The notes below the pieces were generated by a model, which worked only from the letters and a program-made list of their open reading frames with translations, had not been told where the DNA came from and made no database searches. From Anaerolineaceae bacterium UBA5224 (lineage in GTDB: Bacteria; Chloroflexota; Anaerolineae; Anaerolineales; Anaerolineaceae): a stretch of 46,946 bases of DNA. Shown piece after piece: positions 12,230 through 31,882 of the stretch (positions are counted from its first letter, which is position 1; each line of letters opens with the position of its first letter). Location: positions 32,531 to 79,476 of the forward strand of contig DHUW01000090.1 of the NCBI GenBank assembly GCA_002409365.1, given 5' to 3'. Both the position numbers and the translations under genes were made by a program.

Positions 12230-12274
12230 CCCTCTTTATATGCACAATACTAAGATAACAGGAGCAAAACATAG

Positions 12275-15841: not shown

Positions 15842-15980
15842 GATAGGACGCAAGCAGTAAAGAGAGGGTGGTAACTATTGACCATATGTGACGATGGTTT
15901 CGGCTTGCCGTTTTCCCTTCGTCAAGGTATCCTTAATGGTTGACAATTCGCATATTTTGAGATTTCACACGGAGCACTTT

Positions 15981-20496: not shown

Positions 20497-22008
20497 TTAA
20501 GAAAGAAGTGGCAGGAGGGGTTTGGTTCGCTCATAAAGTTCGTGGTAGACCTGGTAGAGTCTTTTGTAGGTCTCTTTATCCGTTTTATCGGGTTTTAAGA
20601 CCAAGGCAGCCTCATCCCAAATTCGCGCCTGGGAAGCATTCTCATAAACGCCAACGCCAATCCCTGCCAAAATGGCATCCCCATATGATGCGCCGGAGTT
20701 ACCTTGCGGAATGCGTACATCGACCCCCGCAATATTGGCAATGATCTGCATCCATCCCTGATTTTTCGACCCTCCACCGACAGCATTGATAAATTTGACA
20801 AGGATGCCCTGGTCTGCCAGGCTTTCAAGATTATGCCGGATACCAAAACCTACTGCTTCCAGCAATGCGCGATACAGATCTGCCTGGGTGTGGCGCAGCG
20901 TCAGACCAAAGAATGCCCCCCGGGCTAATGGGTCGTTAATCGGTGTGCGTTCACCTTCAAAATAAGGCAGCGCGACCAGGTTATTCGCACCCGGGACAGA
21001 CATATTCAACAATTCTGCCATTTGGGCGTAAGGATTCTGGTCCGATGCCTCTGAGTCGGGTGTGTAGATATTTTCCAGGAACCACTTGGTCAGGCTGCCG
21101 ACTGTTGCCATACCGCCAACCACTGCATACTGATCCGGGAAGAGCCAGTTGAGCCCCCAGAAGGTGCGAGAGCGGGTATAGGTGCTGGTCAGGGTGATTA
21201 TGGAATTACTGCTGCCAAACATACCCATCGTATCGCCAGCAGCATAATTGCCGATGCTGACAGCCTCGGCAGCAGCATCGATCGTTCCAGCGATGACAGG
21301 CGTACCAGGGTACAAACCAGTGATTCGGGCAGCGTCAGGGGTAACTCCTCCAATCATGTCCGTAGTCCAGTATTTATCGGGTAATTTTGCGGTTGGGTTG
21401 ATGCCAGCAACGGTTTCATCGATCCAGGTACGCTTTTCGACATCAATGATCGGAGAGTAGGTGGAGGCAGTATAGTTGTCAATTGAAGCTACACCAGTCA
21501 GCCTGGCGACAATGAAGTTTTGGCAGGTTAAGAACCAACTTGTTTTTTGGTAGACCTCCGGCTCGTTGTTGTGCAGCCATAAAATCTTCGGCGCGACAGC
21601 TGAAGCAGAAAGCTCGCAGCCCGCCCGTCTGAATACTTCCTCCTCGCCCAATTCCTGCAGGTATTGTTCTATCTCCGCAGTTGCTCTTGTATCAATTCCA
21701 TACAATATTGCCGGTCGCAGCGGATTGAAGTGTTCATCCACCGGCAAAACGCAGGGACCAATGCCGGAGACTCCGACACCGATAATTTTTTGAGGAGTAA
21801 CCCCGGATTCCTGCAGCAGGTCCTTCACGATCTGGACAAACTCTCCCCACCAAATTTTCTCAGCATCCTGTTCCACCCAGCCCGGCTGGGGCAATGAAAC
21901 ACCATGGGGAATGGTTGACTGGGCAAGTACAGCTCCGTCTTTGGCTTCAATCAGAACGCCTTTGGAAGAGCCTGTGCCAATATCGACTCCGATCAGGTAG
22001 TTTGACAT
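20497..22008 (-). CDS. FGGY family carbohydrate kinase (xylulokinase-like)
   Basis: 503 aa. The N-terminus is YLIGVDIGTGSSKGVL and the C-domain has GGGSKNQGWMQI. The architecture is typical of FGGY kinases. Confidence 0.85.
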   Translation of the reverse strand: MSNYLIGVDIGTGSSKGVLIEAKDGAVLAQSTIPHGVSLPQPGWVEQDAEKIWWGEFVQIVKDLLQESGVTPQKIIGVGVSGIGPCVLPVDEHFNPLRPAILYGIDTRATAEIEQYLQELGEEEVFRRAGCELSASAVAPKILWLHNNEPEVYQKTSWFLTCQNFIVARLTGVASIDNYTASTYSPIIDVEKRTWIDETVAGINPTAKLPDKYWTTDMIGGVTPDAARITGLYPGTPVIAGTIDAAAEAVSIGNYAAGDTMGMFGSSNSIITLTSTYTRSRTFWGLNWLFPDQYAVVGGMATVGSLTKWFLENIYTPDSEASDQNPYAQMAELLNMSVPGANNLVALPYFEGERTPINDPLARGAFFGLTLRHTQADLYRALLEAVGFGIRHNLESLADQGILVKFINAVGGGSKNQGWMQIIANIAGVDVRIPQGNSGASYGDAILAGIGVGVYENASQARIWDEAALVLKPDKTDKETYKRLYQVYHELYERTKPLLPLLS

Positions 22009-22024
22009 TTAGTCCTCCGTAGAA

Positions 22025-22061
22025 AGAAACAGATTGCCGGCGTTGCCAACAATCTGTTTCT
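22025..22061 (-). terminator. intercistronic hairpin between nanE and the FGGY kinase gene (possible attenuator)
   Basis: 12-bp stem agaaacagattg/caatctgtttct with a 13-nt loop. On the minus strand it is followed by a pyrimidine-rich ttctttct and then the kinase RBS GGAGGA. Confidence 0.4.
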
Positions 22062-22075
22062 GTTAATCGATAACA

Positions 22076-22771
22076 TTATTTATGGATGGCTCTTACGAAC
22101 CTTTCCGTGATTTCTTTAGGTCGGGTGACCGCACCACCGACGATTACAGCTGTGGCGCCGTATTCGAGCGCTTTGGCAACTTCGTGGGGATAATGGTAGC
22201 GACCCTCGGCAAAAACTGGAACTGGAAGCTTCGAAGCTATCTCTTTGACAAGGTAAAGGTCTGGTCCATCCAGTTTGGGAGTGTAGTCTGTATAGCCAGA
22301 GAGAGTGGTCGAAACCACATCGGCGCCTGAGATCATGGCAGCTTCTGCTTCTCCGAAGGTCGAAATATCAGCCATAACCAGGCAATCGGTCTGTTCATGA
22401 ATCTTGCGAATGAGCTCCGGCACTTCATCTTCGGGATGAGGACGGAAAGTGGCATCGATCGCGATCACGTCCGCACCTGCATCAGCAATTGCCAAAGCAT
22501 GCGCGATGGTTGCGGTGATAATCACAGGGGTGCCAGGGAAGACTACTTTATAAAGACCGATGATAGGCACGTCGACCGCTTCTCTGATGGCTTTCACATC
22601 CACAGGAGTGTTGGCGCGGATACCTTTTGCGCCGCCCCTGATGGCTGAAATGGCCATTTTTGCCATGATGTCCGCTCCAAACAAGGCTTCTTGTTGTGTT
22701 GCCTGGCAGGAAACGATCAATTCACCTTTTACTTTGGAAATGAACTTAGATAATTTTTCTGTTCTACTCAT
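22076..22771 (-). CDS. nanE: N-acylglucosamine-6-phosphate 2-epimerase (NanE family)
   Basis: 231 aa. LIVSCQATQQEALFGADIMAKMAISAIRGGAKGIRANTPVDVKAIREAVDVPIIGLYK closely follows the NanE N-terminal signature. Confidence 0.8.
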   Translation of the reverse strand: MSRTEKLSKFISKVKGELIVSCQATQQEALFGADIMAKMAISAIRGGAKGIRANTPVDVKAIREAVDVPIIGLYKVVFPGTPVIITATIAHALAIADAGADVIAIDATFRPHPEDEVPELIRKIHEQTDCLVMADISTFGEAEAAMISGADVVSTTLSGYTDYTPKLDGPDLYLVKEIASKLPVPVFAEGRYHYPHEVAKALEYGATAVIVGGAVTRPKEITERFVRAIHK

Positions 22772-22786
22772 AGAAATTTCGCTGTT

Positions 22787-23758
22787 CTACTTAATTTTTA
22801 CCGGAGCGTCTTTTTCGATCGAATCAATGGCAGCCAGAACCATTTTCAACGCTATGATGCCATCTTCTCCTGTAGCCGGGACGGGTTTATCGTCAAGAAC
22901 ACAATCGATGAAGGCTTTATCTTCCACATCCAAACCAGGAGCTGTGGAGGGGAATTTGGAACCAAATTCCGAGTACATTAAGAGACCCTGGCTGGCAAGG
23001 TCGATATCGAGGGAGCCTTTATCGCCAATGACGGTGAGTTTGAAGTCACGACCACCTGGATGGGCTGTAGTCAGATTCCAACCGATCTGGGCACAGACGA
23101 GGGTGCCGTCTTTAAACTTGAAAGTGTTAAAGGTTTCATTTTCCTGCGGGTAGCGCTTGGCCACACTGGTGGACTCGGCGGTATAAACCTGGTCAGGTTC
23201 TACTCCCAGCAGCCAATGTAGGAGATCGAAGTCGTGAATGCCAAGGAAGTGGAGCACACCAATGCGTCCGCCGAGGCGATCCGCCTGGGTAATAATGTTC
23301 ATACGGCGGGAGTAGACGCTGATGATTTTTCCTAATTTTCCGCTCTGAATGAGCTCGCGTGCCTGGACATAGTGTGGAACAAAGCGCAGTGTGAAACCGA
23401 CCATCAGTTTCACATTTGCCGCTTTTGCTGCGGCGATCATCTCTTCGCCGTCTGCAACGGTAGTTGCGATAGGTTTTTCAACAAGGATGTGTTTTCCAGC
23501 CTGGGCTGCTTCGATACAGATATCCTTGTGCAGATGATCGGGGGTTGCCACGATCACTGCTTCAAGCTCCGGGTGAGCTAACAGTTGACGATAATCGGTA
23601 AAACCGGCAATATCTGTTCCGGCGATGGCTTTGTTGACCAGATCCTGGTTCAGATCCGAAACCCCCACAATATTTGCTTCACGGAGATTTTTGAGCATGC
23701 TCACATGTTTGGCTCCGATGGCGCCCAATCCAATAACACCAATTCCTAAAGATTTCAT
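22787..23758 (-). CDS. Gfo/Idh/MocA family NAD(P)-dependent oxidoreductase
   Basis: Rossmann motif IGVIGLGAIGAKH, plus the EKP motif (HILVEKPIA). Confidence 0.85.
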   Translation of the reverse strand: MKSLGIGVIGLGAIGAKHVSMLKNLREANIVGVSDLNQDLVNKAIAGTDIAGFTDYRQLLAHPELEAVIVATPDHLHKDICIEAAQAGKHILVEKPIATTVADGEEMIAAAKAANVKLMVGFTLRFVPHYVQARELIQSGKLGKIISVYSRRMNIITQADRLGGRIGVLHFLGIHDFDLLHWLLGVEPDQVYTAESTSVAKRYPQENETFNTFKFKDGTLVCAQIGWNLTTAHPGGRDFKLTVIGDKGSLDIDLASQGLLMYSEFGSKFPSTAPGLDVEDKAFIDCVLDDKPVPATGEDGIIALKMVLAAIDSIEKDAPVKIK

Positions 23759-23774
23759 TGTACTTCCTCCAATA

Positions 23775-24401
23775 TTAAGAAATTCGATTTAAAGTAAGAA
23801 TCTTCCAGGTTCCTTGTTGTTTTTCAAGGATACTGTAAGACGCATTATCAAGTAGAAAATTTGTAACAACATCAGTTTCTATGCCCATGAGAACTCCAAT
23901 CATGGAGCGAATAAAGTCGCCATGCGAAGTAATAAGAACGCTTTTACCCTCAGATTGACTGAGAATGTCGGTCAGAACTACCCCGGCGCGTTCACGCACC
24001 TGTTGGAAAGTTTCTCCTCCAGGAGGATTGAACGTTGATGCAGTAAGTCCTTGTTCAGCAATCATGCGCTTAAAATCGGGGGCGGGCATTCCATCCCACT
24101 CACCAACATTCCATTCCTGCAAGCGCGGGTCAACTTGTACTTCGAGACCGTGTTCCTTGGCAATAGCAGCTGCCGTTGTCAGGGCGCGTCTCTTGTTGCT
24201 TGAATAAATTTTTCCAATATAGAATGGACGCAGATGTTCGGCAATGCGGGCAGCTTGGGCAAGCCCCGATTCGTTTAATGCACCATCCGATTGCCCTTGA
24301 AGGTAATGCTTGGCATTCGCCTCTGTCTGGGCATGGCGAACAAGTATGAGTCTGGTTACTCCTTCATCAGGCGCGCTCAAAAATGGATTATCTGGAATCA
24401 T
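23775..24401 (-). CDS. histidine phosphatase family protein (phosphoglycerate mutase-like)
   Basis: Catalytic motif RLILVRHAQTEAN and later ITSHGDFIR. The ORF is open to 24425, but ATG 24401 sits 1 nt after the upstream stop, which suggests coupling. Confidence 0.8.
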   Translation of the reverse strand: MIPDNPFLSAPDEGVTRLILVRHAQTEANAKHYLQGQSDGALNESGLAQAARIAEHLRPFYIGKIYSSNKRRALTTAAAIAKEHGLEVQVDPRLQEWNVGEWDGMPAPDFKRMIAEQGLTASTFNPPGGETFQQVRERAGVVLTDILSQSEGKSVLITSHGDFIRSMIGVLMGIETDVVTNFLLDNASYSILEKQQGTWKILTLNRIS

Positions 24402-24402
24402 A

Positions 24403-24753
24403 TTATTCTTTGAGCTTCTCCTCAACTTGTCCGAAAAATACTGCTAATACGGTCTGAACCACGCCCGGTCTGGCACCAAACATCAACTTCTGACTGACCG
24501 CATCCAACGGGTAAGCAAGAACGTCCAATTGTGTGGTCTCGGCAGTGGGAGAGGAATATTTGATCTCAAGCTTGCTGCGATCACCCAGGATTTTACCCTG
24601 CAGTTTTTTATCCATCTGGATTTTCAGAAGCTTGCCTTCTTCGTCATGCGAAAGGACTTTTCCCCCCAATGCAACAGCAACTTTCTTGCAGACAGCTATC
24701 ACTTTCTCTGGTGGTGCTTCGTAAGTCTTTGTTAAATTCACATCATATTTCAT
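24403..24753 (-). CDS. hypothetical protein (116 aa, soluble)
   Basis: Tightly packed inside the operon (8-nt gap upstream, 1 nt downstream). I recognised no motif. Confidence 0.55.
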   Translation of the reverse strand: MKYDVNLTKTYEAPPEKVIAVCKKVAVALGGKVLSHDEEGKLLKIQMDKKLQGKILGDRSKLEIKYSSPTAETTQLDVLAYPLDAVSQKLMFGARPGVVQTVLAVFFGQVEEKLKE

Positions 24754-24761
24754 AATTACTC

Positions 24762-25685
24762 CTATTTGGTCCTGACTTGTTGGCGGACCTCTTCAACGAG
24801 ATCCCATTCGGGCATCCGGGTGCCGGATTGCATGGCAGAGGCTGTTCCGCAGGCAACGCCAAGTCTTAAGGCTTGCTCGAGGTCATAACCATGGTAAAGC
24901 GCAAAACTGAGTCCGGCCACCATAGCGTCCCCCGCACCAACCGGGTTGGCTTCCTGGATCTTAGGCGGCAGGCAAATTGCAGTATTTTTACCATCGGTCA
25001 GGAGAGCACCCTTATCTCCTGCTGAGATCGCGACAAACTTTGCACCGATTGAGCTGGCGATTACCGGGTTTTCAAGGATCTCCTGTAAATCAGTAATTTC
25101 TCTGCCAGTCAACTGGGAGAGTTCAAACAAGTTTGGCTTAACCAGTTTTGGCTTAGCCTGCACACCTTGTTTTAACGCCTCTCCGCTTGTATCCAAAACA
25201 ACATCTCCACCCAACTCCATGATCTGTTTTGTCATTTGTTGATACACTGCACAATCAACACCCGGGGGTATGCTGCCAGCCAACACCCACAATGTGCCGG
25301 GTTTGGCATGTTTAGAAATGTATTGGTAAATGAGCTTTAATTCAGATTCAGAGACGGTTGGTCCCTTTTCATTGACCTTGATATGTTTACTGCCACCGGG
25401 GGTGACAATACTGACATTGGTGCGAGTCTCACCAGAAACAGGGATTGAGACCACGTCAATACCTTGTGCTTTCAAACCCACTTCAATGGTCTTCCCAGTC
25501 TGCCCACCCAGCAGCCCAACCGCTTTTGAAGGTTGGTTCAACTCTTTCAGCATACGCGAGACGTTGAAACCTTTGCCGCCAAAATCCAGCTGCACCTTTT
25601 CAGCGATCAAAACATCATTAAAACGGATGTCCGCAACGGTCAGCTGTTTGTCCAGGGCTGGGTTGAGAGTGACGGTGAAGATCAT
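24762..25685 (-). CDS. fruK: 1-phosphofructokinase / tagatose-6-phosphate kinase (PfkB family)
   Basis: The N-terminus MIFTVTLNPALDKQLTV and C-terminal GAGDAMVAG are typical of the FruK/LacC subgroup. Confidence 0.8.
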   Translation of the reverse strand: MIFTVTLNPALDKQLTVADIRFNDVLIAEKVQLDFGGKGFNVSRMLKELNQPSKAVGLLGGQTGKTIEVGLKAQGIDVVSIPVSGETRTNVSIVTPGGSKHIKVNEKGPTVSESELKLIYQYISKHAKPGTLWVLAGSIPPGVDCAVYQQMTKQIMELGGDVVLDTSGEALKQGVQAKPKLVKPNLFELSQLTGREITDLQEILENPVIASSIGAKFVAISAGDKGALLTDGKNTAICLPPKIQEANPVGAGDAMVAGLSFALYHGYDLEQALRLGVACGTASAMQSGTRMPEWDLVEEVRQQVRTK

Positions 25686-26104
25686 TTCTTATTCTCCGTG
25701 ATTTTTGCAGTCACTGGTTTTGGTTTGAGACCCATGGTAAAGCCTATCAGCGCTCCGGTTATGGTTGTAAAGGCGATCAGCAATCCTTTGCCTCCCCATT
25801 CCTGAACCATGGGTCTTGCCCACAACATCAGCAGGAAAAGGAAAAACATAACAAAGGATTTAAGATAAACCACCAGAATTTGTTTGAAGGAATAGCCTTT
25901 TTTCCAGATCTGGATCACCGTTACCAACAATGCTGAAAGAAGGCTCAGCAAAACCACAGAAATAAACAGCACTGTGTTCTCAGTGGGTCTGTAGAAAAAC
26001 CCGTAATAGGCGCCTAACGCTGCCCCAACCAAAACGTATTGGGCATACAGCCGATAAGCTTGCTTCTTAACTGGCTTATTGTCTTTACTCAACGATTCAC
26101 TCAT
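25682..26104 (-). CDS. hypothetical 4-TM membrane protein
   Basis: 140 aa with four hydrophobic segments. It has a 4-nt overlap with fruK and an 8-nt overlap with the dehydrogenase gene. I recognised no family. Confidence 0.55.
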   Translation of the reverse strand: MSESLSKDNKPVKKQAYRLYAQYVLVGAALGAYYGFFYRPTENTVLFISVVLLSLLSALLVTVIQIWKKGYSFKQILVVYLKSFVMFFLFLLMLWARPMVQEWGGKGLLIAFTTITGALIGFTMGLKPKPVTAKITENKK

Positions 26105-27839
26105 TTTTCCAAAACTCTTCTATTAATACTTTTTCGGCTTCCTGATTCCAGGTATGATCTGGTCCCATTTTTTCAGCAACTTTGGGGTAATTTTGAGCAA
26201 CTTCTCCCAACGACAATAGGGGCAGGTCTTCAAGCTGGGGGTAGATGATGATCTTTCCAGTGAAGGTGCCTGCCATCATTGCATTCATACCGGCAACGGC
26301 TTGTTTGAGCCCACCGATCGCTGCGACACTAAGGTTAGGGGAAAGAGCCCCGGAGACGGACTTTGACATAACAGTCTTCTGGTCAAAAACAGTTGATCCG
26401 GAAGTACCCGTGATTTGCATATTGTTGAGAAAGATATTGTTGAGGTCGATTTGGATGGTAGTGCCATTAGGAACTCCGGCAAAGAAGGTGAGCATGCCAT
26501 TTTTACCCAGGATCAAGGCAGCATTTTCCATCAATTTGGCGTTCGGTACGCATACGACCACATCATCTGCCATTTTCCCGCCGGAAAGTTCGCGGATGGT
26601 CTCAACAAGATCAACTCCCTCTTTATTGGTATTTACCAGGATGAGCTGCTTGCCATTCTTTTTGGCAATCGGATCGCCAGTCTGGCGCAATGCCTGCAGG
26701 CGTTCGTCGTTGATATCAGTCACAACCACGGTTTTGGGTCCGGGCACAAGTTCAAGTGCACGCTGAACATGCATCTGCCCCATCGGACCAGCCCCACCAA
26801 CCACGACCAGCAATCCATCTGCCATCAGTTCCGAGCGGTTCCGCTCTTCACCGTAGGCAGCGCTGATTTCGGTGCCTGTGGTGCCAATATAAGTGGTGTA
26901 GTGATAGTGAACCCGACCGGCGTCGATCACGGTCAGACCCTCCAGGGGTTCATCACTGACGATATTAAGTGTGCCGCGAAAGGCGATTTGTTTGGCAACT
27001 TCTGAAACCAGTTCAGCACCTTTAGGCTCTAGCAGAATGATGTCATCGAAACCTTTACCATTCGTGTTTTCTCGTGCAAAATCCGCGATCTGGTCTTTAT
27101 TCAACGCTCCTACCTCAACCACTTCAGCCTGGGCTTGGGAATGGACGAGCTCCAGGATTTGAGGTGTAGAGTTGCTCAGGAAAATTCTGGCTGGTTTTTC
27201 AAGCCCTTTTTCGAAGGTGAAGGTTTTATCCGAATGAAGAGGACCATCGATCCACATCAAGCCGCCAGCGAGGGGGCTCAAACGGCGCCTTTGGGTGTAA
27301 GCAGCTTCAACACATGCCCAGGGTTCGGTCAGAGCAGACTCTGAGTAGCCTAAATCATTCTGGACAGGAATGAGGTAATTCGGATCATCTGCATCAAAAA
27401 TCTCTTTCCCAATCAGGTGGTATTGGATCAAGCCACCAGGAATAGTGTAGCCATAGGCTGTGGCAACCTTATTCACATATATATCCGGTTGGATAGCGAG
27501 TTTTTGACCGGGTTTGAATCGGTTTTGCAAGTTTTCGCCAACTTTCACAACGGTGAAAGCGGCTTCATGACCAAGCCTGGTAGGTTCGACAGAGAGATTG
27601 CGGTTGTAGAGCTTGGGGTGCTGCCCACCTTGTTTGATCAATTTAACATCAGAAAAGCATAAACCAACAGCATCGACTCTGACTAAAATTTGATCCGGAC
27701 CTGGTTCCGGCATGGGGAAGAGTTCAGGTTTCCCATTGCGACCGACATTTTCCAAACCAGCGCCATACATGTTCCAGCCCATCACCTTCTCGGGCAGGGG
27801 ATAATTCAATTCGATGTACCTGCGGAATTTCTCGTTCAT
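26097..27839 (-). CDS. long-form zinc-type MDR dehydrogenase, L-sorbose-1-phosphate reductase (SorE)-like
   Basis: 580 aa. Motifs: GLCFSDVKLIKQG (Zn Cys), LGHEAAF (Zn His), GYSESALTEPWACV, then a Rossmann motif VVVGGAGPMGQMH only at about residue 345. An extra ~170-aa segment lies between the catalytic and nucleotide-binding parts. Confidence 0.65.
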   Translation of the reverse strand: MNEKFRRYIELNYPLPEKVMGWNMYGAGLENVGRNGKPELFPMPEPGPDQILVRVDAVGLCFSDVKLIKQGGQHPKLYNRNLSVEPTRLGHEAAFTVVKVGENLQNRFKPGQKLAIQPDIYVNKVATAYGYTIPGGLIQYHLIGKEIFDADDPNYLIPVQNDLGYSESALTEPWACVEAAYTQRRRLSPLAGGLMWIDGPLHSDKTFTFEKGLEKPARIFLSNSTPQILELVHSQAQAEVVEVGALNKDQIADFARENTNGKGFDDIILLEPKGAELVSEVAKQIAFRGTLNIVSDEPLEGLTVIDAGRVHYHYTTYIGTTGTEISAAYGEERNRSELMADGLLVVVGGAGPMGQMHVQRALELVPGPKTVVVTDINDERLQALRQTGDPIAKKNGKQLILVNTNKEGVDLVETIRELSGGKMADDVVVCVPNAKLMENAALILGKNGMLTFFAGVPNGTTIQIDLNNIFLNNMQITGTSGSTVFDQKTVMSKSVSGALSPNLSVAAIGGLKQAVAGMNAMMAGTFTGKIIIYPQLEDLPLLSLGEVAQNYPKVAEKMGPDHTWNQEAEKVLIEEFWKNE

Positions 27840-27865
27840 GTCAACTCCTTTCTTAATGACAGCGA

Positions 27866-28294
27866 TTAAGCGTCAAGAGCCTCAATGATGTCTGATTTTT
27901 TGGTGGTTTTTGATAGAAATTCGACACGCTCAATTTCGTCGACGACATTAGCAAGATTCTGCAAGATGCCGATGTGCTCTTCAAAAGTTGCAGCAATGCC
28001 AACCACCAGGTGAACAAGCTCTCCATCCTCCCAGGGTACGCCCTCAGGGATCTGGAGCACGGAGATGCTGGTTTCTTTGATGTAATTCAGATCGGGGAAT
28101 TGCCCATGGGGAATTGCTACACCATTTCCGATCATGGTCGACATGGTTTTTTCACGCTCCAGCATTCCTAAGACATAAGGGGCTTCCACGCGACCAGCCT
28201 GCACCAATAACTCACCAGCGGCTTGAATAGCTTCTTCCTTTGTTTTGACTTTCGAATCAAGGTGCACAAGTTCTTCAGTTAGTATGCGTGACAA
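27866..28294 (-). CDS. PTS EIIA component, fructose/mannitol (EIIA-2) family
   Basis: 142 aa with the phosphorylatable His context GNGVAIPHG. TTG start 5 nt after GGAGG. Confidence 0.85.
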   Translation of the reverse strand: MSRILTEELVHLDSKVKTKEEAIQAAGELLVQAGRVEAPYVLGMLEREKTMSTMIGNGVAIPHGQFPDLNYIKETSISVLQIPEGVPWEDGELVHLVVGIAATFEEHIGILQNLANVVDEIERVEFLSKTTKKSDIIEALDA

Positions 28295-28356
28295 AAAAGC
28301 CTCCTCTAGGTATGCCTATGGCAATAATGTTTTCATAATTGTGGTTTGAGAAAGTG

Positions 28357-28680
28357 CTAATTAGCAGCGATTTCCTTCCCGTCTTTGATATCCTCGACCA
28401 GCTTGTCGAAAATTGGGTCATTAAAGAAAAACTTAAAACTCACCACAACTGCTTCTGGAGCTTTCGCTTGAACGGATTTCTTTACACCTTCATGGCAGAT
28501 GATGAATTTTGTGTTCGGATCCAGATTGGTGACCGCTTTATGAAAAATATTAATATGCCCCAGTCCCGCCTTTTGAAGTTTTTTCTTCATGGCATTGACA
28601 GTCATCAAGCTCGAACCAATTCCGGCTTCACATGCGACAACAATATCTTTTATTTCTTTTGAATCAATTTTGCTATTCAT
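28357..28680 (-). CDS. PTS EIIB component (mannitol/lactose-type, Cys-phosphorylated)
   Basis: Active-site context IVVACEAGIGSSLM as in the MtlA IIB domain. ATG 28680 is preceded by AGGAGA. The ORF-track start 28707 would run into the hairpin. Confidence 0.8.
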   Translation of the reverse strand: MNSKIDSKEIKDIVVACEAGIGSSLMTVNAMKKKLQKAGLGHINIFHKAVTNLDPNTKFIICHEGVKKSVQAKAPEAVVVSFKFFFNDPIFDKLVEDIKDGKEIAAN

Positions 28681-28695
28681 ATATGTCTCCTGACC

Positions 28696-28724
28696 GTGTT
28701 CAGGCAACTGAGTTGCCTGAACAC
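28696..28724 (-). other. intercistronic 13-bp hairpin between EIIC and EIIB genes
   Basis: gtgttcaggcaac/gttgcctgaacac with a 3-nt loop. No U-tract follows. It ends 9 nt upstream of the EIIB RBS on the transcript. Confidence 0.6.
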
Positions 28725-28762
28725 GTTTGTACTAAGCACTGACTAAATTACTAATTCTTTAA

Positions 28763-29803
28763 TTATGCAGCTTCCTCTACGGTCTCTTCTTCTTCTTTGA
28801 CCGGGAAGCGCTTCAAGAGCAAAAAGCCAACCAGGAAGGAGGCGACTGCACCAATCAAAACACCCATCAACACCTGGAAATGCCAGCCTTTGGGGGTCAT
28901 GGCAATATAAGCGAAGATTGAGCCTGGTGATGGGGTGGCGACCAAACCTGCACCGGTGATAACCCACCAGAAGTTAGCGAGGATTGCACCAGCATACATA
29001 GCCAAAATCATGATCGGGTGAGCCAGCACGTAGGGGAAATAGATCTCATGGATGCCGCCCAGGAAGTGGATGATGATGGCGCCAGGAGCAGATTGCTTGA
29101 GCATGCCCTTACCAGCAACGGCATAAGCTAAAAGCAGACCCAAACCAGGACCTGGATCGCTTTCGAGCATGAAGTGAATTGCACGGCCAGTTTCCTGGGA
29201 AGCAACAGCGCCGAGAGGAGCCAGAACACCGATGTTGAGAGCATTGTTCAGGAATAGTACCTTGGCAGGTTCTATGATCAAGGCAACCAACGGCAGCAGT
29301 TTGATGTTGACCAGCCACTGCACAACAGAACCGAAGGCATTGCTGATAATGGTAACAACTGGACCAATCAGGAGCATGCCGATCAGCACAAGGATTACGC
29401 CGATGATACCCATCGAGAAGTTGTTGATGAGCAGTTCAAACCCAACTGGCATGCGGGGTTCCATCCACTCGTCAAATTTCTTCAGGATCCAGGCGGAGAG
29501 AGGGCCCATGATCATGGCACCGAGGAGTTGGGGAATGGAAGAGCCAACAACGGTACCCATGGTTGCTAAAGCACCCATGACACCGCCGCGCTGACCATGA
29601 ACCATGTAACCAGCGGTATAGCCGATCAGGATCGGCAAAAGATAATTAAGGATTGGACCAACAAGAGCTGCGAATCTTTCATTCGGGATCCAGCCTGTTG
29701 CAATGAACATAGCCGTGATCAGACCCCAGGCGATGAAAGCACCAAGATTGGGAACAACCATTGATGCCATAAAACCGCCATACTTTTGAATCTTTTCTTT
29801 CAT
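28763..29803 (-). CDS. PTS EIIC component, mannitol-specific family
   Basis: The N-terminus MKEKIQKYGGFMASMVVPNLGAFIAWGLITAMFIATGWIPNE...LLPILIGYTAGY closely parallels the E. coli MtlA IIC N-terminus from memory. Confidence 0.85.
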   Translation of the reverse strand: MKEKIQKYGGFMASMVVPNLGAFIAWGLITAMFIATGWIPNERFAALVGPILNYLLPILIGYTAGYMVHGQRGGVMGALATMGTVVGSSIPQLLGAMIMGPLSAWILKKFDEWMEPRMPVGFELLINNFSMGIIGVILVLIGMLLIGPVVTIISNAFGSVVQWLVNIKLLPLVALIIEPAKVLFLNNALNIGVLAPLGAVASQETGRAIHFMLESDPGPGLGLLLAYAVAGKGMLKQSAPGAIIIHFLGGIHEIYFPYVLAHPIMILAMYAGAILANFWWVITGAGLVATPSPGSIFAYIAMTPKGWHFQVLMGVLIGAVASFLVGFLLLKRFPVKEEEETVEEAA

Positions 29804-29939
29804 GATATCTCCTTGTAGATTTTGTTACGATGAGAACATAAAAAACGTTGCTTTAGAATTTAATAGTTATTCAAAGACCTCCTTTCAGTATTTGCCCCTG
29901 ATTAATTTAGAAAAGCAGATATAAATTTGACGCTAAGTA

Positions 29940-29967
29940 ATTATATACAAATAAAAAAAAGGCGCAA
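29940..29967 (-). promoter_or_regulatory. candidate sigma70 promoter of the PTS operon
   Basis: On the minus strand: TTGCGC (29967..29962), 16-nt T-rich spacer, TATAAT (29945..29940). It would give a leader of about 130 nt. Confidence 0.5.
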
Positions 29968-30095
29968 GATGAAAACCCAAATTCACTCCCATCGTCTCAT
30001 CTGTTCTGATAGAATTATTTTAACATAGAACCTCATTCCTGGCAGGCTCACAAAGAAAATTTCTGAATTGTTAACGGATTTGACTGACTCATTTG

Positions 30096-31877
30096 TCAGA
30101 GTTCGCTAATCAACCTTTGGTGGGCTTGGCGTAAAATAACAGCATCCATCTTCTCGACCCTTCGATCGTAGGTCAAATAGCCATTAATTTCTGTTTCAAT
30201 GTCTGTTAACTGAGTGTAAATGGCGACACAAAGACCCTTGGGGATGAGCGGTTTGACCTGTTTTTCCAACAAATCCAGGTAAGCGGTGGTCAGCGATTCG
30301 GCATCCAGGTAATGACCATATCCGAATCTTTTACGTTCTGTATATACATGGTCAGGTACCTGCAGGGTATAGCCCCCAAACTCAGTCACAGCCATAATGC
30401 GATGATCTGGGATGCGGGCGCTGAGCGGCTTGACGTAAACATGTCGGCTTTGAAAATCGCCGCCGCCCTGATCAAACCAACCGGAGGCATGGTCCACCAG
30501 GCGGGTCGGGTCTAGTTTTTTAACCGATTCGGCTATGCGAATAGCATGGAATTGCCCCCAACTCTCATTGAACGGCACCCAGACTGCAATGCATGGGCTG
30601 TTATAGAGCGTTTCAATCATGTCTTGCAGTTCGGCACGGAACTCTTCGCGGTTGTGCGGGTCTACACGTCCAAACCGCTGGAGCCGATGCTGGTCAAAGC
30701 GATGAATACCAGAGGTGAAGGTAAACAAAACCACTGCGTCTTTGGTGGTACGTCCTCCGTTGGGCATATCCTGCCAAACGATCATCCCCAGTTTGTCACA
30801 GGCATGGTACCAGCGCAGAGGTTCCACCTTGACATGCTTTCTGATCATATTGCAGCCAATTTTCTTGATGTATTCGATATCCGAAAGCATAGCCTCTTCC
30901 GAAGGTGCCGTATAAAGCCCGTCAGGGAAGTAGCCCTGGTCGAGAGGTCCGTATTGGAAGATGGGTTCATTGTTGAGGGTAAAACGCCAGAGCCCATTTT
31001 TATCTTTAGCTTTGCCAAACTTCCGCATCGCGAAATAACTCTGCACCTGGTCTACCAATTTTTCATCTTCCAGCAAAAGAACTTCGAGGTCATAGAGATA
31101 AGGATGATCAGGATGCCAGAGTCTGGTTTCCGGAATGTGAAAGACCAGCTTGCTTTTCAGATCGCCGCTGATCCGGGCGACCTCTTTGCCTTCAAAACTG
31201 GCAATTGCTTCAACCAGGCAATGGTTTTTCAGGGCGTCATTACTGACGCTCACCTTCAATTCCAGCGTACTGGTATCAATGGAGGGTGTGATCTTCAGCG
31301 AGCGTATATGTTTTTTAGGTAAGATTTCCAGCCAAACTGTTTGCCAGATTCCCGATACAGAGGTGTACCAGATCCCATGGGGTTGCAGACGCTGCTTGCC
31401 CTTTTGGTGCAGCGCTTTTTCAGTTTCATCCTGAACCGTGACGATCAGCTCGTTACTTCCTGCATGAAGGGCGGAAGTAACATCAAAACTGAAAGGCAAA
31501 TAACCGCCCCGATGGTCACCGATAAGCTTCCCATTAACCCAAACCTGGCATGAAAAATCAACTGCCCCAAAATGCAGCATCACCAACTGGTCTGGTGCGT
31601 GCTCGACTTCAAACTGGCGCTGATACCAGAGTTTTTCATCCGGTTGAAGCACCCTTTCAACACCTGAAAGTGCCGATTCAGGTGCAAAAGGCACCAGGAT
31701 CTCTCCAGTAAATTGAGCCGGTTGGGGTAAAGACGCAGTCTGGATGGTGTAATTCCACCATCCGTTCAGATTCTGCCACTTTTCACGCACCATTTGAGGG
31801 CGTGGGTATTCCGGCAAAGGGATAGGAAAAGCAGGCTGCCAGGGGGTGGTCAGTTTATTGATTTTGAGATCAGTCAT
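30096..31877 (-). CDS. glycoside hydrolase family 2 (beta-galactosidase/beta-glucuronidase/beta-mannosidase-like)
   Basis: 593 aa. It has the GH2 sugar-binding signature LHFGAVDFSCQVWVNGKLIGDHRGGYLPFSFDVT, and the TIM-barrel acid/base context VWVPFNESWG. Confidence 0.8.
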   Translation of the reverse strand: MTDLKINKLTTPWQPAFPIPLPEYPRPQMVREKWQNLNGWWNYTIQTASLPQPAQFTGEILVPFAPESALSGVERVLQPDEKLWYQRQFEVEHAPDQLVMLHFGAVDFSCQVWVNGKLIGDHRGGYLPFSFDVTSALHAGSNELIVTVQDETEKALHQKGKQRLQPHGIWYTSVSGIWQTVWLEILPKKHIRSLKITPSIDTSTLELKVSVSNDALKNHCLVEAIASFEGKEVARISGDLKSKLVFHIPETRLWHPDHPYLYDLEVLLLEDEKLVDQVQSYFAMRKFGKAKDKNGLWRFTLNNEPIFQYGPLDQGYFPDGLYTAPSEEAMLSDIEYIKKIGCNMIRKHVKVEPLRWYHACDKLGMIVWQDMPNGGRTTKDAVVLFTFTSGIHRFDQHRLQRFGRVDPHNREEFRAELQDMIETLYNSPCIAVWVPFNESWGQFHAIRIAESVKKLDPTRLVDHASGWFDQGGGDFQSRHVYVKPLSARIPDHRIMAVTEFGGYTLQVPDHVYTERKRFGYGHYLDAESLTTAYLDLLEKQVKPLIPKGLCVAIYTQLTDIETEINGYLTYDRRVEKMDAVILRQAHQRLISEL

Positions 31878-31882
31878 CGGGC

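What the first reader, a model, noticed from the sequence alone, without database searches (positions are those of the whole stretch)
20497..29803. Eleven-gene operon: split mannitol-family PTS with no MtlD, joined to SorE-like reductase, FruK, NanE, Gfo/Idh/MocA, phosphatase and FGGY kinase
Seen: all eleven genes are on the minus strand with tiny gaps or overlaps. The order is EIIC, EIIB, EIIA (three separate genes), a 580-aa Zn-dehydrogenase, a 4-TM unknown, pfkB-type 1-phosphofructokinase, a 116-aa unknown, a His-phosphatase, a Gfo/Idh/MocA oxidoreductase, NanE and an FGGY kinase.

Established: mannitol PTS loci normally encode MtlA (fused IICBA or IICB plus IIA), MtlD (mannitol-1-P 5-dehydrogenase) and MtlR. 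Sorbose systems use SorE with a mannose-family PTS. NanE acts on ManNAc-6-P.

Inference: this mix does not match any pathway I can name. It suggests catabolism of an unidentified hexitol, ketose or amino-sugar alcohol through a phosphorylated intermediate. No HPr, EI, PRD regulator or any other recognisable transcription factor is encoded in the entire 47-kb window. The ~130-nt leader (29804..29939) could carry cis-regulation.
Basis: partly seen in the sequence, partly recalled or inferred. Interest (0 to 1): 0.65.

Follow-up and report, generated by a model that had tools for sequence, protein, structure and literature searches.

The report
Mannitol-type PTS operon lacking MtlD
An uncultured Anaerolineaceae bacterium carries an expressed, conserved eleven-gene sugar operon: a widespread mannitol-type uptake system that uses an uncharacterised dehydrogenase and a fructose-1-phosphate kinase instead of the textbook mannitol enzyme, with a four-gene amino-sugar module attached.

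Summary
The window has no EI, HPr or transcription factor.

The operon is two modules, not one unmatched pathway.

Core module: split mannitol-type EIIC/EIIB/EIIA, a 580-aa Zn-dehydrogenase, a small membrane protein, 1-phosphofructokinase and a 116-aa unknown.
- The PTS lies beside the dehydrogenase in 56/56 relatives' loci, mostly Chloroflexota, also Desulfobulbia and Acidimicrobiia.
- 41/56 carry an HPr-EI fusion in the cluster and 33/56 an MtlR-like regulator. The window's lineage lacks both there.
- The dehydrogenase belongs with E. coli YggP (cryptic cmt operon) and SorE.

Best model, inferred: mannitol is taken up as mannitol-1-P, oxidised next to the phosphate to fructose-1-P, then phosphorylated to fructose-1,6-bisphosphate.

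Accessory module: His-phosphatase, Gfo/Idh/MocA, NanE and FGGY occur in 14/56 loci, always beside this PTS cluster. The layout is sometimes divergent, and a ROK kinase fused to NanE twice replaces FGGY. It probably feeds a ManNAc-type sugar to GlcNAc-6-P.

All eleven genes are under purifying selection (dN/dS 0.02-0.13) and the locus appears in metatranscriptomes, so the PTS is not decaying.

Verdict: a new variant of a known kind, of moderate interest. No activity has been tested.

The parts
29804..30095 (-). Control region between GH2 and EIIC. It holds a promoter-like -35 TTGCGC (29967-29962), a 16-nt spacer and -10 TATAAT (29945-29940), inside an invariant 17-mer TTTGTATATAATTACTT (29951-29935). 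This gives a 5' leader of about 130 nt with an invariant TGAAAGGAGG (29887-29878). A second, weaker promoter-like site lies at 30045-30017.
   Evidence: Sequence. Alignment of nine relatives shows both motifs invariant while the flanks diverge. The motif occurs once per locus, only upstream of EIIC. Promoter scan. RNA contigs of higher depth begin inside this region. No consensus RNA fold and no Rfam hit.
28763..29803 (-). EIIC, mannitol subfamily of the Fru/Mtl PTS family (346 aa), as a separate polypeptide.
   Evidence: PF02378. TIGR00851 mtlA 444.9 bits against a cut-off of 468.4. 54% identical to the E. coli MtlA IIC domain and 53% to CmtA, with the GGIHEIYFPY stretch kept. dN/dS 0.04-0.06.
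28695..28725 (-). Perfect 14-bp GC-rich hairpin between the EIIC stop and the EIIB ribosome-binding site, with no U-run after it. Probably an mRNA-stabilising or partial-stop element that sets EIIC transcript abundance above the downstream genes.
   Evidence: A strong hairpin sits at the same position in other lineages with unrelated sequences (L017, L018, L023, L027, L034). RNA contigs end at 28737-28801, and depth drops from 17 to 5 (X2) and from 14 to 7 and then 2 (X4).
28357..28680 (-). EIIB (107 aa), mannitol type.
   Evidence: PF02302. Aligns to MtlA residues 373-474 with the phosphorylated Cys384 conserved (VACEAGIGSS). Start taken from the gene calls and the AGGAG ribosome-binding site.
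27866..28294 (-). EIIA (142 aa, TTG start), mannitol/fructose type.
   Evidence: PF00359 at 121 bits. 41% identical to MtlA residues 496-633 with His554 conserved (AIPHG).
26097..27839 (-). 580-aa Zn-dependent medium-chain dehydrogenase of the YggP/SorE subfamily, with an extra alpha/beta domain of about 150 aa (residues about 183-330). Proposed hexitol-1-phosphate / ketose-1-phosphate oxidoreductase.
   Evidence: ADH_N + ADH_zinc_N. The best non-orthologous relatives are E. coli YggP (29%) and SorE (27%). It shares their C-terminal extension and the Zn ligands C61, H91, E92 and E172, and has Asp after the second strand of the GxGxxG fold. AF2 model pLDDT 81.7. Only generic MDR matches in PDB. 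It lies next to the Mtl-type PTS in 56/56 loci.
25682..26104 (-). 140-aa membrane protein with 3-4 TM segments and no family. Translationally coupled to the dehydrogenase (8-nt overlap) and to FruK (4-nt overlap).
   Evidence: An ORF of 128-133 aa occupies the same slot in distant relatives (L034; L089, L090). dN/dS about 0.11-0.13.
24762..25685 (-). 1-phosphofructokinase (FruK, PfkB family, 307 aa).
   Evidence: TIGR03828 294 bits against a cut-off of 292. LacC and PfkB-II models score far below their cut-offs. It follows the dehydrogenase in 49/56 loci.
24403..24753 (-). 116-aa protein of a new conserved family, with motifs QMDKKL..LGDRS and YPLNAVGQKLMFGARPGVV. The predicted fold is a small helix-grip-like beta sheet with a long C-terminal helix. 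Function unknown.
   Evidence: No Pfam or NCBIfam hit. All homologues found are unnamed hypothetical proteins. Alignment. AF2 pLDDT 87. Only weak Foldseek matches to SRPBCC/Bet v1 and BamC-N folds, TM 0.45-0.6. Present in 37/56 loci.
23775..24401 (-). Histidine phosphatase, branch 1 (208 aa). Specificity unknown.
   Evidence: PF00300 at 177 bits. Below cut-off for every NCBIfam equivalog. Nearest solved structures are PspA and PhoE. Present in 16/56 loci, including all 14 with Gfo/NanE.
22787..23758 (-). Gfo/Idh/MocA NAD(P) oxidoreductase (323 aa). Substrate unknown.
   Evidence: Pfam N- and C-terminal domains. Below cut-off for the IolG and UDP-GlcNAc 3-dehydrogenase models. Generic PDB neighbours. 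Three of three independently chosen homologues sit beside the same PTS cluster.
22076..22771 (-). NanE-family N-acetylmannosamine-6-phosphate 2-epimerase (231 aa).
   Evidence: PF04131 at 197 bits. NF002231 276 bits against a cut-off of 189. Full-length alignment to solved NanE proteins (5zkn, 4utt), keeping the Lys in the (I/Y)K motif after the IIG strand. Fused to a ROK kinase in L034. NagA lies nearby in L018, L023, L024, L034 and L090.
20497..22008 (-). FGGY-family sugar kinase (503 aa), last gene of the unit. Specificity unknown.
   Evidence: FGGY_N + FGGY_C. XylB model 317.5 bits against a cut-off of 380. Nearest structure is 3ifr, of unknown function. Replaced by a NanE-fused ROK kinase in L024 and L034. 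RNA depth falls near its 3' end in run X3.

Best explanation
The locus is a functional catabolic operon of an uncultured Anaerolineaceae bacterium, assembled from two modules.

Module 1 (EIIC, EIIB, EIIA, 580-aa dehydrogenase, small membrane protein, FruK, 116-aa protein):
- It is a variant mannitol route. This is inferred, not shown.
- A mannitol-type PTS permease takes up D-mannitol, or a very close hexitol, as hexitol-1-phosphate.
- MtlD is absent. In its place a YggP/SorE-family Zn-dehydrogenase oxidises the carbon next to the phosphate, giving fructose-1-phosphate rather than fructose-6-phosphate.
- FruK then makes fructose-1,6-bisphosphate for glycolysis.
- SorE performs the same chemistry on L-sorbose-1-P, which differs from fructose-1-P only at C5.

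Module 2 (His-phosphatase, Gfo/Idh/MocA, NanE, FGGY kinase):
- It is an add-on found only in some Anaerolineae.
- It most likely brings an N-acetylmannosamine-type sugar to GlcNAc-6-P by kinase then NanE.
- The oxidoreductase and phosphatase would prepare or re-route the entry substrate.

Phosphoryl supply and regulation:
- Enzyme I, HPr and the regulator must be encoded elsewhere in this genome.
- Transcription starts from a conserved promoter about 130 nt upstream of EIIC.
- A conserved hairpin after EIIC probably keeps the EIIC part of the mRNA more abundant than the rest.
For: Shown:
- Gene families and tight packing.
- EIIC is 54% identical to E. coli MtlA, and the EIIB Cys and EIIA His phosphorylation sites are intact.
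- No MtlD in the window or in 91 loci.
- The dehydrogenase's best non-orthologous relatives are YggP and SorE. It shares their C-terminal extension and Zn ligands, and has an Asp typical of NAD preference.
- YggP itself sits next to the Mtl-type cmtA/cmtB genes in E. coli.
- PTS beside the dehydrogenase in 56/56 loci, FruK in 49/56, HPr-EI in 41/56, MtlR-like regulator in 33/56, LacI-type in 8/56. One Desulfobulbia locus continues with class II FBP aldolase, GAPDH and enolase.
- FruK passes the curated 1-PFK model, while the tagatose-6-P kinase and PFK-II models fail.
- Gfo/NanE/kinase occur in 14/56 loci, and three of three Gfo homologues picked independently lie beside the PTS cluster. The layout is co-directional or divergent. 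ROK is fused to NanE in L034, with a ROK-type kinase also replacing FGGY in L024. NagA is adjacent in five loci.
- NanE passes its curated model and aligns over its full length to solved NanE proteins.
- dN/dS is 0.02-0.13 for all eleven genes.
- RNA-derived contigs from four metatranscriptomes of three studies cover the locus. Depth is uneven: EIIC 14-17, downstream about 5, neighbouring MFS 0.
- Three cluster-bearing Herpetosiphon species are reported mannitol-positive (PMC6210107; loci L045, L054, L062).

Inferred:
- The substrate, the fructose-1-P product, the role of module 2 and the function of the hairpin.
Against: - No enzyme of this dehydrogenase clade has been assayed, and YggP itself is uncharacterised. 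The position oxidised is deduced only from the SorE analogy and the FruK linkage.
- EIIC scores just below the curated mtlA cut-off (444.9 against 468.4) and is equally close to the cryptic CmtA.
- FruK passes its model by only 2 bits.
- Herpetosiphon clusters lack an adjacent FruK.
- H. llansteffanensis has the cluster but is reported mannitol-negative.
- The exclusive linkage of module 2 to this PTS cluster suggests a closer biochemical link than a separate amino-sugar branch.
- An FGGY kinase acting on ManNAc has no precedent that I know of.
- A phosphatase and a kinase in the same module are not explained.
- EI and HPr of this genome were not found, because the rest of the genome could not be searched.
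- The RNA runs are held as assembled contigs and may contain DNA.
Confidence: 0.42

Rival explanations
1. This is an ordinary mannitol route with a non-orthologous MtlD. The 580-aa dehydrogenase oxidises mannitol-1-P at C5 to fructose-6-P. The PfkB kinase then either acts as a 6-phosphofructokinase or serves fructose-1-P from another source.
For: - Mannitol-type EII.
- MDR-family polyol-phosphate dehydrogenases that oxidise the distal carbon are well known, for example GatD (established knowledge).
- Herpetosiphon clusters lack an adjacent FruK, yet the species are reported mannitol-positive.
Against: - The nearest relatives are SorE and YggP, not GatD. The GatD model scores 23 bits.
- The kinase passes the 1-PFK model but fails the PFK-II model, 156 bits against a cut-off of 353.
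- A dedicated kinase in 49/56 clusters would be unnecessary if fructose-6-P were the product.
Confidence: 0.2
2. All eleven genes form a single pathway for one unidentified amino-polyol or glycoconjugate-derived substrate. The PTS product would be dephosphorylated by the His-phosphatase, oxidised by Gfo, re-phosphorylated by FGGY and epimerised by NanE. The dehydrogenase and FruK would handle the polyol or ketose part.
For: - The Gfo/NanE/kinase trio was found only beside this PTS cluster, in both layouts, and a DeoR regulator heads the divergent operon.
- All 14 Gfo loci also have the His-phosphatase.
- NagA is adjacent in five loci.
Against: - 42/56 loci have the PTS-dehydrogenase core, usually with FruK, and no Gfo or NanE, so the core works on its own.
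- EIIC is 54% identical to a true mannitol permease.
- No natural substrate of this kind is known to me.
Confidence: 0.15
3. The pathway runs in the reductive direction. The PTS imports a ketose such as fructose, L-sorbose or tagatose as ketose-1-P. The dehydrogenase works like SorE, reducing it to a hexitol phosphate. The His-phosphatase then releases the polyol as an electron sink or compatible solute, while FruK takes the rest into glycolysis.
For: - SorE is a reductase in vivo (established knowledge).
- FruK and LacI or DeoR regulators are typical of fructose operons.
- The His-phosphatase is adjacent in this lineage.
Against: - EIIC is of the mannitol subfamily and matched no fructose-specific IIC model.
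- The phosphatase is present in only 16/56 loci.
- The Asp after the second strand of the nucleotide-binding fold suggests NAD rather than NADPH.
Confidence: 0.1
4. This is a cryptic or decaying PTS remnant that cannot work because the genome lacks EI and HPr.
For: - No EI or HPr in the 47-kb window.
- Relatives normally keep an HPr-EI fusion inside the cluster.
- The E. coli counterpart, cmt, is called cryptic.
Against: - dN/dS is 0.03-0.10 for EIIC, EIIB and EIIA across relatives with near-saturated dS.
- The phosphorylation sites are intact.
- All ORFs are intact in about ten related MAGs.
- The locus appears in RNA runs, with EIIC the deepest segment.
Confidence: 0.03

Closest known systems
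E. coli K-12 cryptic cmt operon (cmtB-cmtA-yggP-yggF-fumE-yggC)
   Same: - A mannitol-type EII (CmtA is 53% identical to the window's EIIC) lies directly next to a YggP/SorE-family Zn-dehydrogenase.
- There is no MtlD in the operon, and the physiological substrate is unknown.
   Different: - E. coli has a fused IICB plus a separate IIA.
- YggP is 425 aa and lacks the insert of about 150 aa.
- The partner genes are an FBPase (YggF), FumE and a P-loop protein (YggC), not FruK, the 116-aa protein or the membrane protein.
- There is no amino-sugar module.
Canonical mannitol operon (mtlA-mtlD-mtlR in E. coli; mtlAFD plus MtlR in Firmicutes)
   Same: - A mannitol-subfamily EII with conserved phosphorylation sites.
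- MtlR-like HTH/PTS-domain regulators stand beside the cluster in 33/56 relatives.
   Different: - No MtlD (long-chain mannitol-1-P 5-dehydrogenase) anywhere in the window or in 91 loci.
- The EII is split into three proteins.
- FruK is present.
- No regulator in the window.
[quoted passage not shown]
   Same: - The dehydrogenase is of the same MDR subfamily, with the shared C-terminal extension.
- The proposed chemistry, ketose-1-P to hexitol-P at the carbon next to the phosphate, is the SorE reaction.
   Different: - The sor system uses a mannose-family EII and an SDR glucitol-6-P dehydrogenase.
- Identity is only about 27%.
- The proposed direction here is oxidative.
Fructose PTS operons with FruK (fruBKA; Haloferax ptf/pfkB/fba cluster)
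   Same: - Separate EII components, EI/HPr and 1-PFK in one cluster, with a class II aldolase in one relative.
- LacI or DeoR regulators stand beside the cluster in some relatives.
   Different: - EIIC is mannitol-type, not fructose-type.
- An extra dehydrogenase is always present.
Sialic-acid nan cluster (nanA-nanT-nanE-nanK, plus NanOx/YjhC oxidoreductase)
   Same: - A NanE-family epimerase with a sugar kinase. A NanK-like ROK kinase is fused to NanE in L034.
- A Gfo/Idh/MocA oxidoreductase next to NanE also occurs in some nan clusters (established knowledge).
- NagA lies nearby in relatives.
   Different: - No NanA lyase and no sialic-acid transporter.
- The kinase here is FGGY, not ROK.
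- The oxidoreductase is no closer to NanOx/YjhC (82-85 bits) than to inositol dehydrogenases.

Membership tests
PTS Fru/Mtl family, mannitol-specific EII (MtlA type) | IIC domain matches the PTS_EIIC and mtlA models | tested here: inconclusive
   PF02378 at 69 bits passes. TIGR00851 mtlA scores 444.9 bits, just under its cut-off of 468.4. The IIC domain is 54% identical to E. coli MtlA over 340 residues, including GGIHEIYFPY.
PTS Fru/Mtl family, mannitol-specific EII (MtlA type) | Phosphorylatable Cys in IIB and His in IIA | tested here: met
   The Cys aligned to MtlA Cys384 and the His aligned to MtlA His554 are both present.
PTS Fru/Mtl family, mannitol-specific EII (MtlA type) | Transports and phosphorylates D-mannitol | not testable with these tools
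   Needs a transport or phosphorylation assay. The only indirect evidence is that three cluster-bearing Herpetosiphon species are reported mannitol-positive and one mannitol-negative.
Canonical mtl operon | MtlD (mannitol-1-phosphate 5-dehydrogenase, Mannitol_dh family) encoded with the EII | tested here: not met
   tblastn with E. coli MtlD found nothing in the window or in 91 related loci.
Canonical mtl operon | MtlR-type regulator | tested here: not met
   None in the window. Present beside the cluster in 33/56 relatives.
YggP/SorE subfamily of Zn-dependent medium-chain dehydrogenases | MDR fold with catalytic Zn ligands and GxGxxG | tested here: met
   ADH_N + ADH_zinc_N. C61, H91, E92, E172 and GGAGPMG are conserved.
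YggP/SorE subfamily of Zn-dependent medium-chain dehydrogenases | Closer to YggP/SorE than to other MDRs, and shares their C-terminal extension | tested here: met
   YggP is the best hit on E. coli chromosome-sized records, and SorE comes next. The extension after the GK motif aligns, with invariant P540, L541, W564, A568, E569 and L572.
YggP/SorE subfamily of Zn-dependent medium-chain dehydrogenases | Size and domain layout of about 410-425 aa | tested here: not met
   The protein is 580 aa. A predicted alpha/beta domain of about 150 aa (residues about 183-330) is absent from YggP and SorE.
YggP/SorE subfamily of Zn-dependent medium-chain dehydrogenases | Ketose-1-phosphate reductase / hexitol-phosphate dehydrogenase activity | not testable with these tools
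   Needs an enzyme assay.
L-sorbose (sor) operon | Mannose-family EII (IIA, IIB, IIC, IID) and SorD | tested here: not met
   The EII here is Mtl-type, and there is no SDR or IID gene.
1-phosphofructokinase (FruK) | Score at or above the curated equivalog cut-off | tested here: met
   TIGR03828 scores 294.0 against 292, which is marginal. The relative L076 scores 335.7. LacC and PFK-II models score far below their cut-offs.
NanE (ManNAc-6-P 2-epimerase) | Curated family model and conserved active-site motifs | tested here: met
   NF002231 scores 276 against 189, and PF04131 scores 197 bits. The protein aligns end to end with the solved NanE structures 5zkn and 4utt, with the SCQA, K, TTLSGYT, EG and GGA(V/I)TRP motifs kept.
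Sialic-acid catabolic (nan) cluster | NanA lyase and sialate transporter together with NanE and NanK | tested here: not met
   No DHDPS-family lyase and no sialate transporter in the window.
Xylulokinase (XylB) and other named FGGY kinases | Score at or above the equivalog cut-off | tested here: not met
   XylB scores 317.5 against a cut-off of 380.25. All other FGGY equivalogs score far lower.
Inositol 2-dehydrogenase / UDP-GlcNAc 3-dehydrogenase (named Gfo/Idh/MocA enzymes) | Score at or above the equivalog cut-off | tested here: not met
   IolG scores 179.9 against a cut-off of 355. The UDP-GlcNAc 3-dehydrogenase model scores 202.6 against 450.
E. coli cmt-ygg operon | Mtl-type EII adjacent to a YggP-type dehydrogenase | tested here: met
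E. coli cmt-ygg operon | YggF FBPase, FumE and YggC partners | tested here: not met
   None of these families appears in the window.

The most novel reading that the evidence does not exclude
The 580-aa dehydrogenase and its E. coli cousin YggP may define an unrecognised entry to glycolysis for PTS-imported mannitol. A mannitol-1-phosphate 2-dehydrogenase would form fructose-1-phosphate, which depends on FruK.

If so, this would explain why mannitol-type PTS genes occur without MtlD across Chloroflexota, Desulfobulbia and Acidimicrobiia. It would also give the 'cryptic' cmt-yggP operon of E. coli a function.

The conserved 116-aa protein and the small membrane protein would then be new parts of this route. 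The tightly linked HisP-Gfo-NanE-kinase module would tie it to an amino-sugar-bearing natural substrate. One guess is polyol-phosphate cell-wall polymers with ManNAc-GlcNAc linkage units.
Probability: 0.3. Interest if true: 0.65.

Novelty: new variant of a known kind. Interest (0 to 1): 0.5.

Why it matters
- **A possible second mannitol route.** If the model is right, there is a second widespread way to catabolise PTS-imported mannitol, through fructose-1-P rather than fructose-6-P.
- **Annotation.** This would change metabolic reconstruction for Anaerolineae and other abundant uncultured fermenters in digesters, sediments and groundwater. At present these genes are annotated only as 'zinc-binding dehydrogenase' or mislabelled 'sorbose-1-P reductase'.
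- **E. coli.** It gives a concrete, cheap test for the long-standing orphan cmtBA-yggP operon.
- **New targets.** Two conserved protein families have no annotation, and an extra domain sits in a well-known enzyme fold.
- **If the model is wrong.** The locus is still an ordinary polyol/sugar PTS operon, and the finding matters mainly for annotation.

Tried and rejected
- **Leader RNA element.** No Rfam hit. The single-sequence fold is no better than shuffles, z = -0.18. RNAalifold on ten relatives predicts no pairs. I therefore do not claim a riboswitch or attenuator, only two invariant sequence motifs.
- **Leader peptide after the invariant GGAGG.** Start codons and reading frames are not conserved by inspection, so this was dropped.
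- **Function of the dehydrogenase insert.** Foldseek gives only generic MDR matches that skip the insert.
- **The 116-aa protein.** No Pfam family for any of 24 members. Foldseek matches are weak, so no function is assigned.
- **FGGY as a conserved partner of the dehydrogenase.** A Deinococcus plasmid has the dehydrogenase with an FGGY kinase and no PTS. The two FGGY proteins are only 26% identical and so not orthologous.
- **Gfo as a NanOx/YjhC-type oxidoreductase.** It is no closer to these than to inositol dehydrogenases.
- **Literature.** Nothing found on yggP function, the cmt substrate, fructose-1-P reductase or mannitol-1-P 2-dehydrogenase.
- **EI and HPr elsewhere in the source genome (GCA_002410005.1).** No tool reaches the rest of that assembly. 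A protein search would return only the closest EI proteins of other organisms, so I ran no further search on it.
- **Terminator and promoter scan inside the operon.** Counts are no higher than in shuffles, and all minus-strand terminator-like sites are intragenic.

Full report
**1. The observation**

ORF listing shows eleven minus-strand ORFs between 20497 and 29803. Independent gene calls on five public contigs carrying the identical 580-aa protein give the same eleven genes.

- EIIC: PF02378; TIGR00851 mtlA 444.9 bits against a cut-off of 468.4.
- EIIB: PF02302.
- EIIA: PF00359.
- 580-aa Zn-dependent medium-chain dehydrogenase: ADH_N + ADH_zinc_N.
- 140-aa hydrophobic protein: no family.
- PfkB kinase: passes the 1-phosphofructokinase equivalog, 294 bits against 292.
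- 116-aa protein: no family.
- Branch-1 histidine phosphatase.
- Gfo/Idh/MocA oxidoreductase.
- NanE: NF002231 276 bits against 189.
- FGGY kinase: nearest model XylB, 317.5 bits, below its cut-off of 380.

Spacers between genes run from -8 to 82 nt, and most genes have GGAG-type ribosome-binding sites.

- EIIB probably starts at 28680.
- The phosphatase probably starts at 24401.
- The membrane protein has three strong hydrophobic segments plus one weaker one.

The source is an uncultured Anaerolineaceae MAG (GCA_002410005.1, contig DHPS01000090.1).

The rest of the window encodes the following:
- a Tad-type pilus cluster;
- a very large PMT_2/NHL protein;
- a methyltransferase;
- a GH2 hydrolase with an MFS transporter;
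- a DinG-like helicase;
- cell-envelope sugar genes.

None of these is a transcription factor, EI or HPr. A six-frame phmmer search with HPr-EI, LacI, DeoR and MtlR-like proteins from relatives hit only the EIIA gene. The observation, including the 'nothing regulatory in 47 kb' remark, is confirmed.

**2. Comparative anatomy: two modules**

A scan of one genome per species found 506 stretches encoding a relative of the 580-aa dehydrogenase (identity of the 80 kept loci 51-88%), and 80 loci were kept. I mapped the window's proteins onto them and counted the 56 loci with at least 15 kb held.

| Component | Loci out of 56 |
|---|---|
| EIIC, EIIB and EIIA beside the dehydrogenase | 56 |
| FruK | 49 |
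| HPr-EI fusion | 41 |
| 116-aa protein | 37 |
| MtlR-like regulator (HTH_11/Mga/PTS_IIB domains) | 33 |
| His-phosphatase | 16 |
| Gfo and NanE | 14 |
| LacI-type regulator | 8 |

Details behind the table:
- The hosts span Anaerolineae, Ardenticatenales, Herpetosiphon, Chloroflexales, some Desulfobulbia (Desulforhopalus, Desulfosediminicola) and Acidimicrobiia.
- The HPr-EI fusion is 667-714 aa and sits between EIIA and the dehydrogenase.
- In Desulfosediminicola the fusion is EIIA-HPr-EI. The cluster continues with FruK, class II FBP aldolase, GAPDH and enolase.
- Of the 14 Gfo/NanE loci, 12 have FGGY. In L034 a ROK kinase is fused to NanE (536 aa). In L024 a ROK-type kinase likewise replaces FGGY.
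- All 14 Gfo/NanE loci also have the phosphatase.
- NagA occurs in 4 loci, all of them Gfo loci.

In Pelolinea-type loci the Gfo-NanE-FGGY genes are transcribed divergently from the PTS genes, sometimes headed by a DeoR regulator.

I also took three Gfo homologues (51-56% identity) from contigs chosen without regard to the PTS. All three lie beside the same PTS-dehydrogenase cluster.

The eleven genes are therefore a conserved core of seven genes plus a four-gene accessory module. The accessory module is restricted to some Anaerolineae but tightly linked to the core. The window's lineage has the accessory module, has GH2/MFS upstream, and lacks the in-cluster HPr-EI and regulator.

**3. Is the PTS alive?**

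- EIIB keeps the Cys aligned to MtlA Cys384, and EIIA keeps the His aligned to His554.
- Against six relatives with dS of 0.65-3.2, dN/dS is 0.03-0.10 for the three PTS genes and 0.02-0.13 for all eleven, including the two unknowns.
- Four metatranscriptome runs from three studies hold the locus.
- In two groundwater runs the assembled RNA contigs have depth 17 and 14 over EIIC, about 5 downstream, and 0 over the neighbouring MFS gene.
- That unevenness argues for RNA rather than contaminating DNA. Contig depth is a crude measure, though, and the tool warns that DNA can be present.
- In run X3 depth collapses near the FGGY stop while the downstream methyltransferase has its own high depth, which fits an operon end after FGGY.

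A decaying PTS is therefore unlikely. EI and HPr must be encoded elsewhere. I could not search the rest of the genome for them.

**4. What the core most likely does**

EIIC is 54% identical to the IIC domain of E. coli MtlA and 53% to the cryptic CmtA, with the GGIHEIYFPY stretch intact. No fructose-type IIC model matched it. No MtlD homologue exists in the window or in any of 91 loci.

The dehydrogenase has these properties:
- Its best non-orthologous hits in the plasmid collection are E. coli YggP (29%, hit on E. coli plasmids and chromosome-sized records) and then SorE, L-sorbose-1-P reductase (27%). That collection happens to include whole E. coli chromosomes.
- The alignment shows the catalytic Zn ligands, the nucleotide-binding glycines followed by an Asp (the usual sign of NAD preference), and a C-terminal extension shared specifically with YggP and SorE.
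- It has an additional insert of about 150 aa that AlphaFold models as an alpha/beta domain (pLDDT 81.7). No solved structure matches the insert.
- In E. coli K-12, yggP lies directly after cmtB-cmtA, the mannitol-type cryptic PTS genes.

The pairing 'Mtl-type EII plus YggP/SorE-type dehydrogenase' is thus conserved from E. coli to Chloroflexota.

SorE reduces the keto group next to the phosphorylated carbon of L-sorbose-1-P. This rests on established knowledge. L-sorbose-1-P and D-fructose-1-P differ only at C5, and the corresponding hexitol phosphates are D-glucitol-6-P and D-mannitol-1-P.

My best-supported model is therefore: mannitol enters by the PTS as mannitol-1-P, the dehydrogenase with NAD+ gives fructose-1-P, and FruK gives fructose-1,6-bisphosphate.

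This model accounts for five things:
- the missing MtlD;
- the otherwise puzzling presence of a dedicated 1-PFK in 49/56 clusters;
- the glycolytic genes that follow in Desulfosediminicola;
- the LacI and DeoR regulators seen in some loci, families that include fructose-1-P-sensing FruR/Cra proteins (established knowledge);
- the MtlR-like regulators seen in most loci.

Published phenotypes agree in part (PMC6210107). H. aurantiacus, H. geysericola and H. giganteus carry the cluster (L062, L054, L045) and are mannitol-positive. H. llansteffanensis (L069) also carries it and is mannitol-negative.

All steps of this pathway are inferences. None of these proteins, YggP included, has a published activity that I could find.

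**5. The accessory module**

NanE passes its curated model and aligns over its full length to solved NanE enzymes with the known motifs kept. Its fusion to a NanK-like ROK kinase in L034, and NagA next door in five loci, point to ManNAc-6-P being converted to GlcNAc-6-P and then to GlcN-6-P.

In the window's lineage an FGGY kinase stands where the ROK kinase stands elsewhere. That suggests a non-orthologous replacement, but an FGGY kinase acting on ManNAc has no precedent known to me.

The Gfo enzyme and the phosphatase match no named subfamily.

Why this module occurs only next to the mannitol-type PTS is unexplained. Two possibilities remain open:
- the natural substrate may carry both a hexitol and an N-acetylhexosamine;
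- the phosphatase, oxidoreductase and kinase may re-route a second PTS substrate.

**6. Regulation and transcript features**

The 292-nt space upstream of EIIC contains an invariant 17-mer, TTTGTATATAATTACTT (29951-29935). It holds a perfect TATAAT, with TTGCGC 16 nt upstream. An invariant TGAAAGGAGG lies about 75 nt before the start codon. The sequence around both motifs has diverged.

I found no conserved RNA fold and no Rfam family. Some RNA contigs reach further upstream, to 29998-30046, where a weaker conserved -10-like box lies.

Between EIIC and EIIB there is a perfect 14-bp hairpin with no U-run after it (28695-28725). Other lineages have equally strong hairpins of unrelated sequence at the same spot. 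RNA contigs end there and depth steps down. I read it as a stabiliser or partial stop that raises EIIC transcript levels. This is inference.

**7. The unknown proteins**

The 116-aa protein belongs to a family found only as unnamed hypothetical proteins. It has two nearly invariant motifs, no Pfam match, a confident model (pLDDT 87) and only weak resemblance to helix-grip and BamC-N folds.

The membrane protein is translationally coupled to both of its neighbours. An ORF of similar size fills the same slot in distant relatives.

**8. Verdict**

The locus is a real, expressed and selected operon. Its core is a widespread but uncharacterised variant of the mannitol PTS pathway, with a clear E. 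coli counterpart in cmt-yggP. The add-on is an amino-sugar module of unclear entry substrate.

It is a new variant of a known kind. Interest is moderate at 0.5. It would rise if the fructose-1-P route is shown, because that would also explain the cryptic cmt operon.

Noticed in passing
window 28695-28725; L017, L018, L023, L027 and L034 just after the EIIC stop: A strong 12-14-bp hairpin between EIIC and EIIB is conserved in position, but its sequence is unrelated between lineages. In two RNA runs contigs end there and depth drops about threefold.
   Followed up: partly
window 29951-29935 and 29887-29878: An invariant 17-mer, TTTGTATATAATTACTT, contains the -10 box and a partial palindrome GTA..TAC, so it may be an operator. 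An invariant TGAAAGGAGG lies in the leader. Both sit in an otherwise diverged intergenic region and occur once per locus.
   Followed up: partly
window 29893: A one-base insertion (A) in the leader is present in the RNA contigs of three of the four runs, so this is strain-level variation in the control region.
   Followed up: no
window 30096-33418: A GH2 glycosidase (593 aa, beta-glucuronidase-like architecture, below every named cut-off) and a GPH/MFS transporter lie directly upstream on the same strand. The pair is conserved only in the window's clade and in L017. MFS RNA depth is zero in two runs where the PTS genes are covered.
   Followed up: partly
L017 6353-7462: An ORF resembling an ISAs1-type transposase, judged by eye from its N-terminal sequence, is inserted between GH2 and EIIC in a 62%-identical relative. 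It separates the two units.
   Followed up: no
L034 15053-16663 (and L024): In L034 NanE is fused to a ROK (NanK-like) kinase in one 536-aa protein. In L024 a ROK-type kinase likewise stands in place of the separate FGGY kinase.
   Followed up: partly
L076 7329-16528 (Desulfosediminicola flagellatus): A triple EIIA-HPr-EI fusion (877 aa) is followed by the dehydrogenase, FruK, class II FBP aldolase, GAPDH and enolase. This echoes E. coli, where the cmt-ygg genes lie beside epd-pgk-fbaA.
   Followed up: partly
L088 8204-12958 (Deinococcus sp. AJ005 plasmid p380k): A 564-aa homologue of the dehydrogenase (38% identical) sits with an SDR, an unrelated FGGY kinase and a GntR regulator, with no PTS. 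It lies opposite an ABC-transporter / ROK / AGE-epimerase / mannose-6-P-isomerase cluster.
   Followed up: partly
L069 (Herpetosiphon llansteffanensis) versus L062, L054 and L045: H. llansteffanensis carries the PTS-dehydrogenase cluster but is reported mannitol-negative. Three other Herpetosiphon species carry it and are mannitol-positive (PMC6210107).
   Followed up: no
window 1296-13606: A Tad/Flp-type pilus gene cluster: prepilin peptidase-like protein, two TadE-like proteins, TadG-like protein, CpaB-like protein, ParA/MinD-like ATPase, two T2SSF proteins, a TPR protein and a T2SSE ATPase.
   Followed up: no
window 15888-19478: An ORF of 1196 aa combines a PMT_2 glycosyltransferase membrane domain with C-terminal NHL repeats.
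   Followed up: no
window 38292-42853: Three large ORFs (397, 522 and 532 aa) have no Pfam match. They lie in a lower-GC stretch (0.39-0.40) next to GtrA, GT2, epimerase and DegT cell-envelope sugar genes.
   Followed up: no
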